Assembly: GCA_031253995.1 (NCBI GenBank)
Contig: JAIRVG010000012.1
Location: 10,700 to 74,699 of the forward strand
Length of the DNA: 64,000 nt
Reading direction: 5' to 3'
Source: Paucimonas sp.
Lineage (GTDB): Bacteria > Pseudomonadota > Gammaproteobacteria > Pseudomonadales > Pseudomonadaceae
Both the position numbers and the translations under genes were made by a program. The notes under the pieces are model-generated. The model saw nothing but the letters and a program-made list of their open reading frames with translations. It did no database searches and was not told where the DNA came from. Below, in pieces: positions 5,841 to 32,394 of this stretch; within the stretch, counting starts at the first letter, position 1, and each line of letters begins with the position of its first letter.

Positions 5841-5909
5841 ATCGCTGGCAAGCCAGCTCCCACAGGTCCGGTTTACACAGCCCCCTGTGGGAGCTGGCTT
5901 GCCAGCGAT
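5841..5909. repeat. Inverted REP doublet (GTGGGAG ends facing inward)
   Basis: ATCGCTGGCAAGCCAGCTCCCACAGG-spacer-CCTGTGGGAGCTGGCTTGCCAGCGAT, between arcB and arcC. Confidence 0.9.
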
Positions 5910-13316: not shown

Positions 13317-13383
13317 GAGGGCCTCATCGCTGCTCCCACACCGCTGAACCTGTGGGAGCTGGCTTGCCAGCGATAGGGCCCTT
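13317..13383. repeat. Inverted REP doublet with a 9-nt deletion in the left copy
   Basis: ATCGCTG[GCAAGCCAG missing]CTCCCACA-spacer-TGTGGGAGCTGGCTTGCCAGCGAT. Confidence 0.85.
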
Positions 13384-16553: not shown

Positions 16554-16601
16554 GCGCGCAATTCCGTAGAATGCACGCTTTTGCGCCAGGAGCTTCACTC
16601 G

Positions 16602-17090
16602 ATGCCGAAACCACTGCTCCAGCCACAGGGCGACTTCCCGGTTGCCGGACTGGGCCGCCGCTTTGCGGCGATGTTCTATGACTTTTTGCTCTGCACTGCC
16701 CTGCTCATGGTGACCACGCTGGTCTACAAGATGATCCAGATGGCGTTCATCGGTGAAACGCGGATGCGCGCCTTGACCGAAGCCGGCGCCCTCGATGGTG
16801 ATCCGCTGCTGTCGACGATCCTGGTGTTCGCCCTGTTCGGCTTCTTTGCCAAGTTCTGGACCCATGGCGGCCAGACCCTGGGCATGCAGGTCTGGGGCGT
16901 GCGGGTGCAGAACGCCGACGGTAGCGCAATCAGCCTGTGGCAGGCGCTGCTGCGCTTCGTCATCTCGATCGGTTCGTGGCTGTGCCTGGGGCTGGGGTTC
17001 TTCTGGGTGTTGATCGACAAGCGCAAGCGCAGCTGGCATGACATGTATTCGGAAACGCAGTTGGTGCGGGTTCCCAAGCGCAAGAAGTGA
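16602..17090 (+). CDS. RDD family membrane protein
   Basis: RRFAAMFYD, GQTLGM and SWHD motifs; AGGAG RBS. Confidence 0.9.
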   Translation: MPKPLLQPQGDFPVAGLGRRFAAMFYDFLLCTALLMVTTLVYKMIQMAFIGETRMRALTEAGALDGDPLLSTILVFALFGFFAKFWTHGGQTLGMQVWGVRVQNADGSAISLWQALLRFVISIGSWLCLGLGFFWVLIDKRKRSWHDMYSETQLVRVPKRKK

Positions 17091-17101
17091 TGTTGTTCTT
17101 T

Positions 17102-17137
17102 CGGGCCTGATCGCTGGCAAGCCAGCGATCAGGCCCG
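17102..17137. repeat. Collapsed REP doublet (perfect palindrome)
   Basis: CGGGCCTGATCGCTGGC-AA-GCCAGCGATCAGGCCCG; the core equals the REP inner palindrome with CGAT tails on both sides. Confidence 0.8.
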
Positions 17138-17153
17138 CACTGACAACAGAAAT

Positions 17154-17185
17154 GAAAAAGCCGACCTCAATGGGTCGGCTTTTTC
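17154..17185. terminator. Bidirectional intrinsic terminator
   Basis: GAAAAAGCCGACC...GGTCGGCTTTTTC between convergent RDD and lptG. Confidence 0.85.
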
Positions 17186-17203
17186 ACATCTACAGGAAAC
17201 GGT

Positions 17204-18265
17204 TCAACCCGCCCTGCGCAACAACCACAGCCCCGCCAGCGCACAGATCCCCGCCGGCAGCAGCACCGCCAGCAGCGGCGGGAAGCCGAACACCTGGCTC
17301 GACGGCCCCAGCAGATCCTGGGCAATGCGGAACACGAAGCCCACCAGCACGCCAGTGAACACCCGCTGACCCAGGGTCACCGAACGCAGCGGGCCGAAGA
17401 TGAACGAGATCGCCATCAATACCAGCGCCGCCGTCACCAGTGGCTGCAGGACCTTGGTCCAGAACGCCAGCCAGTAGCGATCGTTGTTCAGGCCCTGGTC
17501 GGACAGGTAGTGGATGTAGTCCCACAACCCGGTGATCGACAGCGATTCCGGCGCCATCACCACGGTATTCAGCAGTTGCGGGGTCAGGGCGACGTCCCAG
17601 CGCTCTTCTGCAGTCTTCACCACTTCAGTGTGGTCACCACGGAACAGGGTGGTGGTGACGTCGGTGAGCAGCCAGTGATCCTGTTGGTACTGGGCGCGGC
17701 GGGCAAAGCTGGACGACTGCATGTGCCGCTCGCTGTCGAAGCGATAACGGGTCACACCCAGCATCAGGCCATTCGGCTGCACGGTGTTGATGTGCACGAA
17801 CTCCTCGCCCTGGCGGTGCCACAGTCCGCGCTTGGAGGTCTGCGCCTCGCCACCGCCCTGGGCCAGGGAACGATCGGCCTGGGCCTTGTTCTCGGTCACC
17901 GGGGCGACGTACTCGCCGATCAGCACGCCAGCCAGCATCAGCACCAGCATGGGCTTCATCACCGCCCAGACGATACGGCCGATGGACACGCCGGCGGCGC
18001 GCATGATGGTCAGCTCGCTGTTGCTGGCCAGGCTGCCGAGGCCGATCAGGCAGCCGATCAGGCCCGCCATCGGCAGCATGTCGTAGAGGCGCCGCGGCGC
18101 GGTCAGTGCCACGAACTGGCCGGCATCCCACAGGGTGTAGGTGTCGCTGATGTCGCCCATCTCGTCGATGAAGGCGAACAGCGACGCCAGGCCGAGAATG
18201 ATCCCCAGCACGGCGAGGATCGCCATGAACACACTGCTGCCGATGTAACCGTCGAGCTTACGCAC
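17204..18265 (-). CDS. lptG: LPS export ABC permease LptG
   Basis: YjgP/Q family with SELTIMRAAGVS motif; GTG start overlapping the lptF stop region. Confidence 0.93.
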   Translation of the reverse strand: MRKLDGYIGSSVFMAILAVLGIILGLASLFAFIDEMGDISDTYTLWDAGQFVALTAPRRLYDMLPMAGLIGCLIGLGSLASNSELTIMRAAGVSIGRIVWAVMKPMLVLMLAGVLIGEYVAPVTENKAQADRSLAQGGGEAQTSKRGLWHRQGEEFVHINTVQPNGLMLGVTRYRFDSERHMQSSSFARRAQYQQDHWLLTDVTTTLFRGDHTEVVKTAEERWDVALTPQLLNTVVMAPESLSITGLWDYIHYLSDQGLNNDRYWLAFWTKVLQPLVTAALVLMAISFIFGPLRSVTLGQRVFTGVLVGFVFRIAQDLLGPSSQVFGFPPLLAVLLPAGICALAGLWLLRRAG

Positions 18266-19373
18266 GGGCCACCTCCGCACGACGCGCGCTCAGTTTCAGG
18301 CGCAGCGGCTCCCAGTACATCAGCCCAAGGCCGATCACCAGGAACAGCGCGTGCACCGGCCACAGGCCCAGGGCCAGCGGGATCTTGCCTTTTTCCAGGG
18401 CGCCGCGGGCGGCAATCAGAATCGTCAGGTAGGCCATATACAGGAGAATCGCCGGCAGCAGCTTGAGGAAACGGCCCTGGCGCGGGTTGACCCGCGACAG
18501 CGGCACCGCCATCAGGGTAACGATGAACACCAGCAGCGGCAGCGACAGGCGCCACTGCAGCTCGGCACGCTCACGCGGGGCATCGCTCTTGAACAGCTCG
18601 GAGGTCGGGATGGCTTCGCGCTCGGTGATGTCCTGGCTGACTTCCGGCTTGGGCAGCAGCACGCCGTAGGTGTCGTACTTGATCGCCCGGTAGTCGGCCT
18701 GGCCCGGGTTGCCATCGTAGCGGTAGCCGTTTTCCAGGATCAGGTAGCGGTTGCCGTCGGCCTGCACTTCCTGGCGGCCCTTCTCGGCCACCAGCACGCT
18801 GATGCCACGGTCCTTGCTCTTGTCGCTGTTGAAGCGTTTCTCGGAAATGAACACGCCACCCAGGTTGGCGCGGTCATCGGACAGCTGCTCGGTGTAGGTC
18901 ACCCGGGTGCCATCGCGCAAGGTCTGGAAACGGCCCGGCACCAGGGTGTCGAACTCGGTCAGGGCGTCCTGCTGGTTGATGATCCGGGCAACCTGGGCAA
19001 CGCCCTGCGGCGCCAGGCTCAGGCTCAGCCAGGCGACGATCAGCGCAACCAGCGCGGCCGGGGCCATGGTCATGCGCAGCAGGCGTTGCTGGCTCATGCC
19101 GGTGGCGGACAGCACGGTCATCTCGCTTTCGAGGTACAGGCGACCGTAGGCCAGCAGGATGCCGAGGAACAGCCCCAGCGGCAGGATCAGCTGCAGGAAG
19201 CCCGGCAGCCGGTAGCCCATGATCATGAACAGCACGCCCGGATCGAGCATGCCCTGTGCGGCCTGGGCCAGGTATTTGATGAAGCGCCCGCTCATGATGA
19301 TCACCAGCAGCACGGCGCTGACGGCACTCAAGGTCACCAGGACCTCGCGGGACAGATAACGGAAGACGATCAA
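18258..19373 (-). CDS. lptF: LPS export ABC permease LptF
   Basis: IVFRYLSREV, ESEMTVLSATG and PRQGRF motifs. The TTG start is better spaced from AGGAG than the GTG at 19382. Confidence 0.93.
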   Translation of the reverse strand: MIVFRYLSREVLVTLSAVSAVLLVIIMSGRFIKYLAQAAQGMLDPGVLFMIMGYRLPGFLQLILPLGLFLGILLAYGRLYLESEMTVLSATGMSQQRLLRMTMAPAALVALIVAWLSLSLAPQGVAQVARIINQQDALTEFDTLVPGRFQTLRDGTRVTYTEQLSDDRANLGGVFISEKRFNSDKSKDRGISVLVAEKGRQEVQADGNRYLILENGYRYDGNPGQADYRAIKYDTYGVLLPKPEVSQDITEREAIPTSELFKSDAPRERAELQWRLSLPLLVFIVTLMAVPLSRVNPRQGRFLKLLPAILLYMAYLTILIAARGALEKGKIPLALGLWPVHALFLVIGLGLMYWEPLRLKLSARRAEVARA

Positions 19374-19499
19374 ACCAGACACTCCTGGGTTGTCAGGCTC
19401 GGACAGCCAAACAAGGGAAACGTTGCAACCAACAAGAAGATAGTTGCCGGTGCGTCAATGCACCCGGACTTCGAAGTGCGCGCATTATCCTGTGATTGA

Positions 19500-21158
<1,659 letters not shown>

Positions 21159-21199
21159 CCGGATGCCGGTCGGTCCCGTGACCGGCCGGCGACTGCCTC

Positions 21200-21628
21200 A
21201 TGAGCCAAGTCGACTTCTACATCCTGCCCACGCCCTCGCCGGCCGCGCGCCTGGACTTCGCCTGCAAGCTCTGCGAAAAGGCCTGGCGCCTCGGGCACCG
21301 GGTCTACCTGAACTGCAGCGACGCCGCCCAGCGCGATGAGCTGGACGCCCGCCTCTGGGCGTTCAAGGGCGAGGCCTTCGTGCCCCACAGCCACGCCGAG
21401 GCCGATGCCGCGGCGGCGGTGGCCCTGGGCATCGGCGACAACCCCGGCGAACACCAGGACCTGCTGGTCAATCTCGACCTCAAGGTGCCGCCGTTCGCCG
21501 CGCGCTTCGCCCGCATCGCCGAGATCGTGGTCGAAGATCCGGCGATCCGCCAGGCGACCCGAGAGAGTTTCCGCTTCTACCGCGAACAGGGCTATGCTCT
21601 GCAAGATCACCGCTTACAGCGATTCTGA
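21200..21628 (+). CDS. holC: DNA polymerase III chi subunit
   Basis: VDFYIL, LDARLW...FVPH and RESFRFYREQG motifs; follows pepA. Confidence 0.95.
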   Translation: MSQVDFYILPTPSPAARLDFACKLCEKAWRLGHRVYLNCSDAAQRDELDARLWAFKGEAFVPHSHAEADAAAAVALGIGDNPGEHQDLLVNLDLKVPPFAARFARIAEIVVEDPAIRQATRESFRFYREQGYALQDHRLQRF

Positions 21629-21633
21629 CGACG

Positions 21634-21999
21634 ATGGACAAACGCCCGCCCCTGCCCCAATCCGCCCATCTGCTGGACGACCTGGAGTCGATCCGCCAGT
21701 TGCTGGGTGATGAAACCCTGCAACCGCCCCTGCTGACCGACACCGTGGAAGAACAGATCCCGCTGCTGCTGGAACCTGCCGACGACCTCGCGCCAGCCGC
21801 CCCTGCCGCCGCGCCGGTGGAAGAAGTCGACCCGCAGACCCGTCGCCAGGACACCCTGCTGCACCTGGACGCCGAGTTGCGAGCGGCGGCGCAGTTGATC
21901 ATGCAGGACGTGATCGACGATTTCGCCCCGCATATCGAGAACGAGATCAAGCGCCGCCTCGACGCCCGCCTCGAACGCCTGCTCAACCAGTCTTCCTGA
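21634..21999 (+). CDS. Conserved hypothetical protein with PopZ-like architecture
   Basis: 121 aa: N-terminal helix LLDDLESIRQLLGDE, acidic Pro/Ala-rich linker, C-terminal amphipathic helices. The ORF is solid; the PopZ link is inference. Confidence 0.75.
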   Translation: MDKRPPLPQSAHLLDDLESIRQLLGDETLQPPLLTDTVEEQIPLLLEPADDLAPAAPAAAPVEEVDPQTRRQDTLLHLDAELRAAAQLIMQDVIDDFAPHIENEIKRRLDARLERLLNQSS

Positions 22000-22028
22000 G
22001 CTACTCCAGCCTGAAGGCCTGCACAGGA

Positions 22029-22121
22029 CCCTGTGGGAGCTGGCTTGCCAGCGATTTGGCCAGACCTGACAACATCATTGCCCTTGCCGGCCTCATCGCT
22101 GGCAAGCCAGCTCCCACAGGG
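22029..22121. repeat. REPIN (inverted REP doublet, GTGGGAG ends outward)
   Basis: CCCTGTGGGAGCTGGCTTGCCAGCGAT-spacer-ATCGCTGGCAAGCCAGCTCCCACAGGG. Confidence 0.9.
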
Positions 22122-22218
22122 GTTATGTGTTGCCCGCACCCTGCTTATCGCCTCAACCCCCCGCCTCCGTTATACTTCCCGGCTTTCCCGAATAAATGCC
22201 ATAGGGTCCCCCCGCGCA

Positions 22219-25065
22219 ATGGATAAGACCTACCAGCCGCACGCCATCGAAACTTCCTGGTACAACACCTGGGAGTCCGAGAATTACTTCGCCCCGCAAG
22301 GTGCAGGCGAGTCGTACACCATCATGATCCCGCCGCCGAACGTCACCGGCAGCCTGCACATGGGTCACGGCTTCAACAACGCGATCATGGACGCCCTGAT
22401 CCGTTTCCGCCGCATGCAAGGGCGCAACACCCTGTGGCAGCCGGGTACCGACCACGCCGGTATCGCCACCCAGATGCTGGTGGAGCGCCAGCTCGAAGCC
22501 AAGGGCCAGAACCGTCACGACCTGGGCCGCGAGAAGTTCCTGGAAAAGGTCTGGGAATGGAAGGATCAATCGGGTGGCAACATCAGCCGCCAGATCCGCC
22601 GCCTTGGCTCTTCCGTGGACTGGAGCCGCGAGCGCTTCACCATGGACGACGGCCTGTCCGAAGCGGTCAAGGAAGCCTTCGTGCGCCTGCATGAAGACGG
22701 CCTGATCTACCGCGGCAAGCGCCTGGTCAACTGGGACACCAAGCTGCACACGGCCATCTCCGACCTCGAAGTGGAAAACCACGACGAGAAGGGCCACCTG
22801 TGGAACCTGCGCTACCCGCTGGCCGACGGCGCGAAAACCGCCGAGGGCAAGGACTACCTGGTGGTCGCCACCACCCGTCCGGAAACCATGCTGGGCGACG
22901 CCGCCGTCGCGGTGAACCCGAACGACGAGCGCTACCAGGCCCTGATCGGCAAGTTCGTCGAGCTGCCGCTGGTCGGTCGCCGCATCCCGATCATCGCCGA
23001 CGACTACTGCGACCCCGAGTTCGGTACCGGCTGCGTGAAGATCACCCCGGCCCACGACTTCAACGACTATGAAGTCGGCAAGCGCCACAGCCTGCCGCTG
23101 CTGAACATCTTCGACAAGAACGCCATGGTCCTGGCGGCCGCCCAGGTGTTCAACCTCGACGGCAGCGTCAACGAAGCCATCGACGGCAGCCTGCCGGAGA
23201 AGTACGCCGGTCTCGACCGCTTCGTCGCGCGCAAGCAGATCGTCGCCGACTTCGACGCCCTGGGCCTGCTGGTCAGCGTCGACGACCACGCCTTGAAAGT
23301 GCCGAAGGGCGACCGCTCCGGCACCGTCATCGAGCCGTGGCTGACCGACCAGTGGTACGTCTCCACCAAGCCGCTGGCCGAACCTGCCATCGCCGCCGTT
23401 GAAGACGGCCGCATCCAGTTCGTGCCCAAGCAGTACGAGAACATGTACTTCTCCTGGATGCGCGACATCCAGGACTGGTGCATCAGCCGCCAGCTGTGGT
23501 GGGGCCACCGCATCCCGGCCTGGTACGACGAGTCCGGCAAGGTCTACGTCGGCCGCAGCGAGGAAGAAGTCCGGGCGAAGAACAATCTCGGCGCCGATGT
23601 CGTCCTGAACCAGGACAACGACGTCCTCGACACCTGGTTCAGCTCCGGCCTGTGGACCTTCTCCACCCTCGGCTGGCCGCAGCAGACCGAATTCCTCAAG
23701 ACCTTCCACTCCACCGACGTGCTGGTCACCGGCTTCGACATCATCTTCTTCTGGGTCGCCCGGATGATCATGCTGACCATGCACCTGGTGAAGAACGAGG
23801 ACGGCACCCCGCAGGTTCCGTTCAAGACCGTGTACGTCCACGGCCTGGTCCGCGACGGCCAAGGCCAGAAGATGTCCAAGTCCAAGGGCAACGTCCTCGA
23901 CCCGCTGGACATCGTCGACGGCATCACCCTCGACGCCCTGCTGGAAAAACGCACCAGCGGCATGATGCAGCCCAAGCTGGCCGAGAAGATCGCCAAGCAG
24001 ACCAAGGCCGAATTCCCCGAAGGCATTGCCAGCTACGGCACCGACGCCCTGCGCTTCACCTTCTGCTCGCTGGCGTCCACCGGTCGCGACATCAAGTTCG
24101 ACATGGGCCGCGTCGAAGGCTACCGCAACTTCTGCAACAAGATCTGGAACGCCGCCCGCTACGTGCTGGACAAGGGCGAGGACTGCGGCCAGAACGGCGA
24201 GGCCTACGAGCTGTCGCTGGCCGACCGCTGGATCATCTCGCAGCTGCAGCGCACCGAAGCCGAAGTGACCCGCCAGCTGGAGCAGTTCCGCTTCGACCTG
24301 GCTGCCCAGGCCCTGTACGAGTTCATCTGGAACCAGTACTGCGACTGGTACCTGGAACTGTCCAAGCCGGTGCTGTGGGACGAGAACGCCCCGGTCGAGC
24401 GCGCCCGCGGCACCCGTCGTACCCTGGTGCGCGTGCTGGAAGTGGCGCTGCGCCTGGCCCATCCGTTCATGCCGTTCATCACCGAAGAGATCTGGCAGCG
24501 CCTGGCGCCACTGGCCGGCATCGATGGCAAGACCATCATGCTGCAGCCATGGCCTGAAGCGAACGACAGCCGCATCGACGCCGCTGCCGAAAGCGACATC
24601 GAGTGGGTCAAGGAGCTGATGCTGGGCGTGCGCAACATCCGCGCCGAGATGAACATCGGTCCGGGCAAGCCGCTGCAGCTGTTCCTGAAGAACGCCACTG
24701 CCGAAGACCAGCGTCGCCTCGGCGAGAACGAAGCGCTGCTGAAGAAGCTGGCGAAGATCGAGTCGTTCACCGTGCTCGCCGAACAGGACGAAGCCCCGCT
24801 CAGCGCCACCGCGCTGGTGGGCGACCTGCAAGTGCTGGTGCCGATGGCCGGCCTGATCGACAAGGACGCCGAGCTGGCGCGCCTGAACAAGGAAATCCAG
24901 CGTCTGCAAGGCGAAGTCCAGCGTGTCGGCGGCAAGCTGTCCAACGCCGCCTTCGTCGACAAGGCCCCACCGGCCGTGATCGACAAGGAACGCGCCAAGC
25001 TGGCCGAGGCCGAACAGGCCCTGGCCAACTTCACCGAGCAGCACGCGCGGATCGCCGCCCTTTAA
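22219..25065 (+). CDS. valS: Valine--tRNA ligase
   Basis: [13 protein letters not shown] and KMSKS motifs; C-terminal coiled coil. A TATACT -10 candidate lies at 22171-22176. Confidence 0.98.
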
Positions 25066-25070
25066 GCGAC

Positions 25071-25157
25071 GCAGACCTTGTGGGAGCTGGCTTGCCAGCG
25101 ATGACGATAGTGAATTCACCATCGCAATCGCTGGCAAGCCAGCTCCCACAGGTCTGC
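25071..25157. repeat. REPIN forming a near-complete hairpin
   Basis: GCAGACC-TTGTGGGAGCTGGCTTGCCAGCGAT-GACGATAGTGAATTCACCATCGCA-ATCGCTGGCAAGCCAGCTCCCACA-GGTCTGC. Spacer and flanks are also self-complementary. Confidence 0.92.
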
Positions 25158-32307: not shown

Positions 32308-32394
32308 GAGGGCCTCATCGCTGGCAAGCCAGCTCCCACAGGTTTCGCGGTGTAACAGGTTCCTGTGGGAACTGGCGTGCCAGCGATTGGCCTC
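32308..32394. repeat. Inverted REP doublet (GTGGGAG ends inward)
   Basis: ATCGCTGGCAAGCCAGCTCCCACAGG-spacer-CCTGTGGGAACTGGCGTGCCAGCGAT; the right copy has 2 substitutions. Confidence 0.88.

What the first reader, a model, noticed from the sequence alone, without database searches (positions are those of the whole stretch)
21634..21999. Hypothetical between holC and valS looks like a gammaproteobacterial PopZ-like polar scaffold
Seen: a 121-aa protein with three parts. (1) Short amphipathic helix LDDLESIRQLLGDE. (2) Acidic Pro/Ala-rich linker (LQPPLLTDTVEEQIPLLLEPADDLAPAAPAAAPVEE). (3) C-terminal helices LDAELRAAAQLIMQDVIDDFAPHIENEIKRRLDARL. Known: alphaproteobacterial PopZ has the same layout (client-binding H1, PED-rich disordered region, oligomerising C-terminal helices) and forms polar condensates. 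From memory of Caulobacter PopZ, H1 EEILASIRRIISED aligns with L-x-SIR identical and the remaining hydrophobic/acidic pattern largely kept. Its C-terminal VRELLRPLLKEWLDQNLPRI aligns with LRAAAQLIMQDVIDDFAPHI (R, D, PxI). I also recall popZ lying just upstream of valS in alphaproteobacteria, the same position as here. Inference: this may be an unrecognised PopZ-family hub in Pseudomonas, co-transcribed with pepA and holC. I do not know of a published assignment, but the literature needs checking.
Basis: partly seen in the sequence, partly recalled or inferred. Interest (0 to 1): 0.72.

Follow-up and report, generated by a model that had tools for sequence, protein, structure and literature searches.

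The report
PopZ-like small scaffold upstream of valS
A conserved 121-residue Pseudomonas protein between holC and valS has the layout, N-terminal motif and gene position of the alphaproteobacterial pole-organiser PopZ, so it may be a diverged relative, but sequence statistics do not prove membership and its function is untested.

Summary
ORF 21634-21999 (+) encodes a real, conserved 121-aa acidic protein (pI 4.3). It has a short N-terminal amphipathic helix, a basic-free acidic Pro/Ala linker with two PLL[TS][DE] motifs, and one confident 54-residue C-terminal helix. It sits in pepA-holC-X-valS.

The recalled PopZ facts also hold. valS follows popZ on the same strand in 67 of 80 alphaproteobacterial loci. 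PopZ H1 (ILASIRRII) aligns with LESIRQLL.

Family membership is not shown. None of 64 diverse relatives was reported to match Pfam DUF2497. Full-length profile-profile comparison finds nothing. Block-wise comparison is weak: N helix P=0.0013, clearly above controls; C helix P about 0.006-0.009, barely above a reversed control and with two competing registers.

The family has 139 clusters at 50% identity. Named members are Pseudomonas, Halopseudomonas and Endozoicomonas. X followed holC in 83 of 83 testable loci, and once without valS. E. coli lacks it.

Best reading (about 0.45): a PopZ-type self-associating scaffold, probably a diverged positional ortholog. Main rival: a lineage-specific partner of HolC or the replisome. 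Many databases mislabel it "DNA polymerase III subunit chi". I found no publication on it.

The parts
21634..21999 (+). Gene X: 121-aa acidic protein (pI 4.34, net charge -14), the subject of the finding
   Evidence: ORF list. 2516 homologous clusters. Conservation pattern. Composition.
21670..21705 (+). N-terminal amphipathic helix, residues 13-24 (LLDDLESIRQLL). Candidate partner-binding helix, aligned with PopZ H1.
   Evidence: AF2 helix 13-23. Residues 12-26 largely invariant in Pseudomonas. hhalign N block P=0.0013, 0/120 permutations reach it. The motif phi-x-SIR-x-phi-phi occurred only in X and PopZ plus 2 other ORFs in 1.87 M residues.
21706..21831 (+). Acidic, basic-free Pro/Ala-rich disordered linker, residues 25-66, variable in length across the family (25-146 aa)
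   Evidence: AF2 pLDDT about 48-65 with no secondary structure. Composition. Family statistics. Alignment gaps.
21724..21741 (+). Short linear motif 1, PPLLTD (residues 31-36)
   Evidence: P31, P32, L34 and T35 invariant in A1. 1-4 P[LVIM][LF] motifs per family member.
21754..21774 (+). Short linear motif 2, QIPLLLE (residues 41-47). P43 and L45 are among the eight nearly invariant positions across the whole family.
   Evidence: Nearly invariant (>=90%) across 64 diverse members.
21832..21993 (+). C-terminal long helix, residues 67-120, with conserved core LRAAAQLIMQDVIDDFxPHIExEIKRRLDAR. Presumed self-association module.
   Evidence: AF2 single helix at pLDDT 90-97. P99, E102, E104, R108 and L109 nearly invariant family-wide. 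Weak similarity to PopZ H3H4.
21200..21628 (+). holC (DNA polymerase III chi), immediately upstream; 5 nt between its stop and the X start
   Evidence: Pfam PF04364 E=7e-40. holC precedes X in 83/83 loci with room. Spacing -26 to +152 nt.
19665..21158 (+). pepA (leucyl aminopeptidase), first gene of the apparent operon
   Evidence: Pfam Peptidase_M17 E=6e-133. Same order in related loci.
22029..22121 (.). Inverted pair of REP elements in the X-valS spacer (33-nt arms, 94% complementary)
   Evidence: Very high depth and contig breaks here in metatranscriptome assemblies.
22219..25065 (+). valS (valine-tRNA ligase), immediately downstream
   Evidence: Pfam tRNA-synt_1, Anticodon_1 and Val_tRNA-synt_C. 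valS follows X in 75/76 loci with room.

Best explanation
X is a small acidic modular scaffold built like PopZ.

Proposed mechanism:
- The 54-residue C-terminal helix self-associates (inferred).
- This displays several copies of a flexible, negatively charged tail.
- Each tail carries an N-terminal amphipathic helix and one to four PLL[TS][DE] motifs that capture partner proteins (inferred).

X is most likely a highly diverged positional ortholog of alphaproteobacterial PopZ. It would have been inherited vertically with valS and lost in lineages such as Enterobacterales, where holC now abuts valS.

Shown here: gene reality, conservation pattern, predicted architecture, composition, operon context, the N-helix motif match and the shared valS adjacency.

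Inferred: oligomerisation, client binding and common ancestry.

Not addressed: polar localisation or condensate formation.
For: - Architecture. AF2 with the same pipeline gives X = helix 13-23 / disorder / helix 67-120. PopZ = helix 10-23 / disorder / H2 / one long helix 137-175.
- Linker. X has acidic fraction 0.26 and basic 0.00. The PopZ IDR has 0.27 and 0.01. PMC9512792 reports 0.29 acidic for Caulobacterales.
- N helix. hhalign P=0.0013, score 18.0. Permuted columns give 7.8 +/- 1.7 (max 14.2) and the reversed control gives 8.7.
- Motif rarity. phi-x-SIR-x-phi-phi was found only in X (78 ORFs) among 0.83 M residues of gamma six-frame ORFs. In 1.04 M residues of alpha ORFs it was found in 80 PopZ ORFs and two others.
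- C helix. The PopZ C-terminal HMM ranks X proteins first among 5988 ORFs of the gamma loci. 4 of 64 X members score 8.8-11.5 bits, against about 2 of 2641 shuffles at 8.5 bits or more.
- Synteny. valS starts directly downstream on the same strand in 67/80 PopZ loci (PMC5686542) and in 75/76 X loci. Spacers are similar, about 125-200 nt.
- Descent. ValS identities fit vertical descent rather than transfer of an alpha block: 64% to E. coli and 45-48% to alphaproteobacteria.
- Both families carry a short hydrophobic motif inside the acidic linker: VLELT-type in 58/80 PopZ, PLL[TS][DE] in X.
Against: - No PF10691/DUF2497 match was reported for the window protein or any of 64 diverse relatives, even at E<=10.
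- A profile search of 1.84 billion proteins returned 139 hits with no PopZ-like sequence among them.
- Full-length hhalign probabilities are at most 2%. The best block reaches only 18.6%.
- The C-block score of 16.5 is close to the reversed control of 14.0.
- hhalign and HMMER choose different registers, placing X P99 on PopZ P158 or on P146. The latter needs a one-residue gap.
- X HMMs do not rank PopZ first among alpha ORFs.
- X lacks PopZ H2, the loop and W151/L152, which PMC12999525 reports as needed for hexamers, filaments or trimer stability.
- Deep branches of the X family lose the similarity. Endozoicomonas-type members have LERLR and no P99. One subfamily lacks the N helix altogether.
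- The family is narrow, at 139 clusters at 50% identity, and absent from E. coli.
- In L081, X stays with holC although valS is not downstream.
Confidence: 0.45

Rival explanations
1. X is a lineage-specific accessory protein of the chi subunit (HolC) or the replisome. A coiled-coil stalk displays acidic tails whose 'acidic run + IP + hydrophobic' motifs (such as DDDLQIPLLSD or EEQIPLLLE) resemble the SSB C-terminal tip DDDIPF, which chi binds. X would then bind or compete at chi or other SSB-tail-binding proteins. On this view the PopZ resemblance is convergent, and the valS adjacency is simply inherited from the older holC-valS adjacency seen in E. coli.
For: - X follows holC in 83/83 loci with room.
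- Start and stop overlap by 4 nt or lie 5-15 nt apart in many lineages, including this window.
- In L081, X remains after holC although valS is not downstream.
- E. coli has pepA-holC-valS with holC overlapping valS, so holC-valS adjacency exists without X.
- The IPLL motif (P43, L45) is conserved family-wide, even where the N helix is lost.
- The resemblance to the SSB tail, and chi binding that tail, rest on my own knowledge and were not tested here.
Against: - There is no direct evidence of any X-chi contact.
- In about half of the loci the holC-X spacer is 49-72 nt, so translational coupling is not universal.
- SSB-tail recognition normally needs the free C-terminal carboxylate (own knowledge), whereas the X motifs are internal.
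- This reading explains neither the N-terminal SIR helix match nor why PopZ also sits just upstream of valS in 67/80 alpha loci.
Confidence: 0.3
2. X is a small acidic coiled-coil protein with some other, unrelated role, such as an adaptor in division, proteolysis or stress. Both its similarity to PopZ and its position are coincidental.
For: - Short amphipathic helices, acidic linkers and long helices are common building blocks.
- All sequence similarities to PopZ fall below accepted thresholds.
- Nothing was found in Pfam, NCBIfam, PDB sequences or PDB folds.
Against: Three things would have to coincide: a rare N-terminal motif, the same module order, and the same immediate downstream neighbour on the same strand. 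The chance that an unrelated gene sits directly upstream of valS is on the order of one in a few thousand genes (inference).
Confidence: 0.2
3. X is not a separate functional protein. It would be either a spurious ORF in GC-rich DNA or, as many database records name it, the DNA polymerase III chi subunit itself.
For: - NCBI and UniRef name many orthologs 'DNA polymerase III subunit chi'.
- GC-rich DNA yields many long spurious ORFs here.
Against: - The true chi is the preceding gene (PF04364 E=7e-40), and X has no match to that family.
- The X protein sequence is conserved in 2516 clusters, with invariant termini and in-frame linker indels.
- The C helix is predicted at pLDDT above 90.
Confidence: 0.02

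Closest known systems
PopZ (pole-organizing protein Z; Pfam PF10691 / DUF2497) of Alphaproteobacteria
   Same: - Size class, acidity (pI 4.3 vs 4.05) and module order: N-terminal amphipathic helix at residues about 10-24, a basic-free acidic Pro-rich disordered linker of variable length with an embedded hydrophobic motif, then a long C-terminal helix containing a conserved Pro and followed by a short, often basic tail.
- Shared N-helix core L-x-S-I-R-x-phi-phi.
- valS immediately downstream on the same strand.
   Different: - No DUF2497 match was reported and there is no significant profile-profile similarity.
- X lacks H2, the H2-H3 loop and the RPxLKxWLDxNLP signature with W151/L152.
- X is shorter (121 vs 177 aa), with a shorter and less Pro-rich linker (0.16 vs 0.31).
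- X is always preceded by holC, whereas no holC was found near popZ.
- Named X members are Pseudomonas, Halopseudomonas and Endozoicomonas, not Alphaproteobacteria.
- Function and localisation are unknown.
SSB C-terminal tail / chi (HolC) interaction module
   Same: X is encoded directly after holC. It carries acidic stretches followed by IP + hydrophobic residues, reminiscent of the SSB tip DDDIPF (sequence seen; the SSB tip is recalled from my own knowledge).
   Different: The X motifs are internal rather than C-terminal. X has no OB fold, and no interaction has been tested.
HubP / FimV polar landmark proteins of Gammaproteobacteria
   Same: They are acidic, repeat-rich hub proteins that organise cell poles in Vibrio and Pseudomonas (own knowledge; HubP is mentioned in PMC9927451). 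They are the known functional analogues of PopZ in this class.
   Different: They are large membrane-anchored proteins with LysM and FimV domains. X is a 121-aa soluble protein with no detectable similarity to them.

Membership tests
PopZ / DUF2497 (PF10691) | Match to the Pfam DUF2497 model above its gathering score (27 bits) | tested here: not met
   No PF10691 hit for the window protein at E<=10. None appeared among the reported families for 64 diverse relatives (only the top 25 of 54 matched families were listed). Ten distant members scanned individually also had none. A real PopZ scores 85.6 bits, E=3e-24.
PopZ / DUF2497 (PF10691) | Significant profile-profile similarity to an alignment of PopZ proteins | tested here: not met
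   Full-length hhalign probability is 0.5-2%. By block: N helix P=0.0013, probability 18.6%; C helix P=0.0085, probability 4.7%. The C block is close to the reversed control.
PopZ / DUF2497 (PF10691) | N-terminal client-binding helix H1 (MEEILASIRRII, residues 10-24) | tested here: inconclusive
   A helix lies at the same position (13-23 vs 10-23). The core phi-x-SIR-x-phi-phi is shared and rare. However, Endozoicomonas-type members have LERLR and one subfamily has no N helix. Client binding was not tested.
PopZ / DUF2497 (PF10691) | Acidic, Pro-rich, basic-poor disordered linker of variable length | tested here: met
   Linker 24-66 (as computed): acidic 0.26, basic 0, Pro 0.16, net charge -11. 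PopZ IDR: 0.27, 0.01, 0.31. Family linker length is 25-146 aa and every member is net negative.
PopZ / DUF2497 (PF10691) | C-terminal oligomerisation domain: H2, loop, and H3H4 helix with P146, W151 and L152 forming trimers, hexamers and filaments (PMC12999525) | tested here: not met
   X has one long helix 67-120 with a single conserved Pro (P99). No W-L pair aligns, and there is no H2/loop equivalent. Whether the helix oligomerises could not be tested with these tools.
PopZ / DUF2497 (PF10691) | Gene located immediately upstream of valS on the same strand | tested here: met
   PopZ: 67/80 loci and PMC5686542. X: this window and 75/76 related loci with room.
PopZ / DUF2497 (PF10691) | Polar localisation, self-assembly into a condensate or filament network, recruitment of ParB and other clients | not testable with these tools
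   Needs microscopy and biochemistry. I found no publication on the Pseudomonas protein.
DNA polymerase III chi subunit (PF04364), the name many databases give X | Match to the DNA_pol3_chi model | tested here: not met
   X has no hit. The upstream gene 21200-21628 matches full length at E=7e-40. NCBIfam chi models also hit only the upstream gene.

The most novel reading that the evidence does not exclude
X is a true, vertically inherited ortholog of PopZ that has diverged beyond sequence recognition. That would make a PopZ-type self-assembling hub with its valS linkage older than the split between Alpha- and Gammaproteobacteria. Pseudomonas and its relatives would then carry an unrecognised condensate- or filament-forming organiser, produced together with the replisome subunit chi.
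Probability: 0.3. Interest if true: 0.8.

Novelty: new variant of a known kind. Interest (0 to 1): 0.62.

Why it matters
The papers I read describe PopZ only in Alphaproteobacteria, where it is the textbook bacterial example of a membraneless organising hub. Known polar hubs in Pseudomonas and Vibrio (FimV, HubP) are unrelated membrane proteins.

A PopZ-derived scaffold in Pseudomonas would matter in three ways:
- It would extend the evolutionary range of this mechanism.
- It would give a small, genetically tractable candidate organiser in an important genus.
- It would explain a conserved but uncharacterised gene in a housekeeping operon.

Even if the PopZ link fails, two things stand. This conserved protein is systematically mislabelled as chi. 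Its constant pairing with holC makes a replisome-linked role directly testable.

Tried and rejected
- Direct BLASTP of X against PopZ: nothing significant.
- Pfam and NCBIfam on X and on 64 + 10 relatives: only noise such as WcbI and DUF7697, well below cut-offs.
- PDB sequence search with the family profile: 0 hits at E<=10.
- Foldseek of the AF2 model against PDB: best E=4.2, ribosomal and filament helices, meaningless for a single long helix.
- Profile search with distant family members, hoping to reach PopZ: 23 hits, none DUF2497.
- HMM-versus-sequence tests in both directions, with shuffled and reversed decoys: mean shifts of only 1-3 bits.
- X HMMs against alpha ORFs: PopZ is not the top hit.
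- Classical heptad register in the C helix: no register stands out, so a canonical heptad coiled coil is not demonstrated.
- Clamp-binding motif reading of QIPLLL: dropped, because Q and the last position are not conserved outside the putida-like group.
- Horizontal transfer of an alpha popZ-valS block: rejected from ValS identities.
- First metagenome scan with the most divergent alignment (A4) failed for lack of a conserved stretch, so A5 was used instead.
- Literature searches for PA3833, PP_0978 and gammaproteobacterial PopZ found nothing relevant. The locus tags are from memory.

Full report
**1. Observation**

The surrounding genes were confirmed with Pfam:

| Gene | Coordinates | Strand |
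|---|---|---|
| RDD protein | 16581-17090 | + |
| lptG | 17204-18280 | - |
| lptF | 18258-19382 | - |
| pepA | 19665-21158 | + |
| holC | 21200-21628 | + |
| X | 21634-21999 | + |
| valS | 22219-25065 | + |

- The holC stop and the X start are 5 nt apart.
- No sigma-70-like promoter or intrinsic terminator was found on the + strand from pepA to valS.
- The only notable element in the 219-nt X-valS spacer is an inverted pair of REP elements.
- Metatranscriptome contigs from related Pseudomonas run from the 3' end of pepA through holC and X, and break at the REP. This fits co-transcription. The caveat is that these are assemblies and may contain DNA.

**2. It is a real, conserved gene**

- A search of 5.8 billion proteins found 2516 clusters. 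The best 120 are all 68-94% identical and, where named, nearly all Pseudomonas.
- In a 43-sequence alignment, most of residues 12-26 (HLLDDLESIRxLLGD) and 83-116 are invariant. The linker varies in sequence and length through in-frame indels.
- AlphaFold2 predicts helix 13-23, disorder 24-66, and a single helix 67-120 at pLDDT 90-97.
- The protein is acidic, with pI 4.34 and net charge -14. Its linker has no basic residue.

**3. Extent of the family**

A profile search of 1.84 billion representatives gave only 139 clusters at 50% identity. The named ones are Pseudomonas, Halopseudomonas and Endozoicomonas. Others come from unnamed metagenome organisms.

- The features nearly invariant (at least 90%) across 64 diverse members, apart from the initiator Met, are P43 and L45 (the IPLL motif) and P99, E102, E104, R108 and L109 in the C helix.
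- Members carry one to four P[LVIM][LF] motifs, usually followed by S/T and an acidic residue.
- Endozoicomonas-type members have LERLR instead of LESIR and lack P99.
- One subfamily lacks the N helix and has extra PLL repeats.
- Halopseudomonas-type members are longer and contain an extra NPFLPY...LAxLAxER segment.

**4. Genomic context of the family**

I examined 84 loci: 4 from exact look-ups and 80 from a metagenome scan.

- holC precedes X in 83 of 83 loci with room.
- valS follows X in 75 of 76 loci with room.
- The one exception is L081, which keeps holC-X but has no valS downstream.
- The distance from the holC stop to the X start runs from -26 to +152 nt. One cluster lies at -4 to +15 nt and another at about 49-72 nt.
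- E. coli K-12 has the same block, lptGF / pepA-holC-valS, but holC overlaps valS and there is no X.

**5. Checking the recalled PopZ facts**

- The PopZ sequence I wrote from memory scores 85.6 bits on Pfam DUF2497 and is 97% identical to a Caulobacter protein named PopZ.
- A scan of one genome per species returned 80 PopZ loci from Caulobacterales, Hyphomicrobiales and other Alphaproteobacteria.
- In 67 of these, valS starts on the same strand, mostly 100-300 nt after popZ. No holC or pepA is nearby.
- PMC5686542 states the same for Agrobacterium and Caulobacter.

So the positional correspondence is real and strong.

**6. Is X a member of the PopZ family by sequence? No.**

- No DUF2497 match was reported for the window protein or any of 64 diverse relatives at E<=10.
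- BLASTP finds nothing.
- Full-length hhalign against narrow or diverse PopZ alignments gives probabilities of 0.5-2%.

Block-wise hhalign is more informative:

| Comparison | P | Probability | Alignment or control |
|---|---|---|---|
| N block vs N block | 0.0013 | 18.6% | LESIR on LASIR |
| C block vs C block | 0.0085 | 4.7% | IDDFxPQIE on LDxNLPxIVE |
| Mismatched pairs (N vs C, C vs N) | 0.23, 0.35 | - | negative controls |

Against 120 column permutations:

| Block | Real score | Null mean +/- SD | Null max | Reversed control |
|---|---|---|---|---|
| N | 18.0 | 7.8 +/- 1.7 | 14.2 | 8.7 |
| C | 16.5 | 9.4 +/- 2.2 | 15.7 | 14.0 |

- The C-helix signal is therefore mostly generic helix similarity.
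- HMMER prefers a different C register, LEDVVRELLRP on LQDVIDDF-xP, which needs a one-residue gap.
- HMM-versus-sequence scores exceed shuffles by only 1-3 bits on average.
- Even so, X proteins are the top hits of the PopZ C-terminal HMM among 5988 ORFs of the gamma loci.
- The motif phi-x-SIR-x-phi-phi occurs only in X, PopZ and two other ORFs in 1.87 million residues of six-frame ORFs. That pattern was defined after seeing the match, so its rarity overstates significance.

**7. Architecture comparison**

Folded with the same pipeline, PopZ gives helix 10-23, disorder, H2 (101-127), a loop, and one long helix 137-175.

- PMC12999525 reports that the H3H4 helix forms a trimeric coiled coil. 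It also reports that the loop, the last six residues, P146 and W151/L152 control hexamer and filament formation.
- X shares the first helix, the acidic linker and a long Pro-containing terminal helix.
- X has no H2 or loop and no W-L pair.
- Both linkers contain a short hydrophobic motif: VLELT-type in 58 of 80 PopZ, PLL[TS][DE] in X.

**8. Weighing the evidence**

- Taken alone, the sequence evidence is suggestive for the N helix and negligible for the C helix.
- The independent fact that both genes sit directly upstream of valS on the same strand is hard to ascribe to chance. That adjacency holds across most sampled Alphaproteobacteria and across essentially the whole X family.
- ValS identities fit vertical descent rather than transfer of an alpha block: 64% to E. 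coli, 67% to Endozoicomonas and 45-48% to alphaproteobacteria.
- HolC itself is only 28% identical between Pseudomonas and E. coli. A small, largely disordered protein could therefore plausibly have diverged beyond detection between classes.
- I put common ancestry with PopZ near one half, and a PopZ-type scaffold mechanism at about 0.45.
- The main rival, at about 0.3, is a lineage-specific partner of chi or the replisome. It rests on the invariant holC-X pairing, the frequent start/stop overlap, the L081 exception, and the resemblance of the acidic IPLL motifs to the SSB tail that chi binds. That last point is from my own knowledge and was not tested.
- The two readings are not exclusive.

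**9. Novelty**

- Full-text searches found no paper on this protein (locus tags recalled as PA3833 and PP_0978) and no report of a gammaproteobacterial PopZ.
- The PopZ papers I read describe it only in Alphaproteobacteria, one as widely distributed among them.
- Many database records call X 'DNA polymerase III subunit chi'. This is wrong, because the true chi is the gene before it.

**10. Verdict**

I rate this as a new variant of a known kind, of moderate to high interest. The deciding steps are a valS-upstream survey across Proteobacteria, multimer modelling, and simple localisation and oligomerisation experiments.

Noticed in passing
window 22029-22121; also 5841-5909, 13350-13374, 25078-25151, 32317-32387: A REP-type repeat (CTGTGGGAGCTGGCTTGCCAGCGAT) occurs 9 times in the window, against 0 expected. 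Most copies are in inverted pairs, and pairs flank valS on both sides. Metatranscriptome assemblies show very high depth and contig breaks at the copy after gene X.
   Followed up: partly
window 21634-21999 and its orthologs (P0001, P0015, P0022 and others): NCBI and UniRef name many orthologs of this protein 'DNA polymerase III subunit chi', although the true chi (PF04364) is the preceding gene and X does not match that model. This looks like a propagated annotation error.
   Followed up: yes
P0335, P0391, P0400, P0405 (family members from metagenomes): One subfamily lacks the N-terminal LESIR helix. It has three or four PLL[ST][DE]-type repeats and ends in LRAGRR. This suggests the PLL motifs and the C helix, rather than the N helix, are the family's core.
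   Followed up: partly
P0336, P0344, P0345, P0359, P0363, P0374 (Halopseudomonas and relatives): Longer members (150-200 aa) carry an extra conserved segment, NPFLPY(D/E)SLAxLAxER..L..L, between the linker and the C helix. This could be an additional helix loosely comparable in position to PopZ H2. It was not analysed further.
   Followed up: no
L081 6001-6726 (metagenome contig, 252 kb): This is the only locus where X (241 aa, very divergent) follows holC but valS is not downstream. An SH3_3-domain gene follows instead.
   Followed up: partly
L047 1599-2252: A typical Xanthobacteraceae-like PopZ sits on a 3.3-kb contig of a MAG labelled Steroidobacteraceae (Gammaproteobacteria). It is probably a binning error, but it was not checked.
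   Followed up: no
L001-L080 (PopZ loci), PopZ residues about 32-107: A [VIL][LI][ED]L[TS] motif (mostly VLELT) is embedded at variable positions in the disordered linker of 58 of 80 PopZ proteins. I do not know of a described function for it.
   Followed up: partly
window 16581-21628 and L081-L083, L165: The block lptG-lptF (one strand) / pepA-holC (other strand) is conserved from E. coli to Pseudomonas and Endozoicomonas. An RDD-family gene lies beside lptG in the Pseudomonas-type loci but not in E. coli.
   Followed up: partly
window 21480-22139 (-) and other overlapping ORFs: Long ORFs on the opposite strand and in other frames overlap gene X, for example 219 aa on the - strand. They look like the usual by-product of GC-rich DNA and were not examined for conservation.
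   Followed up: no
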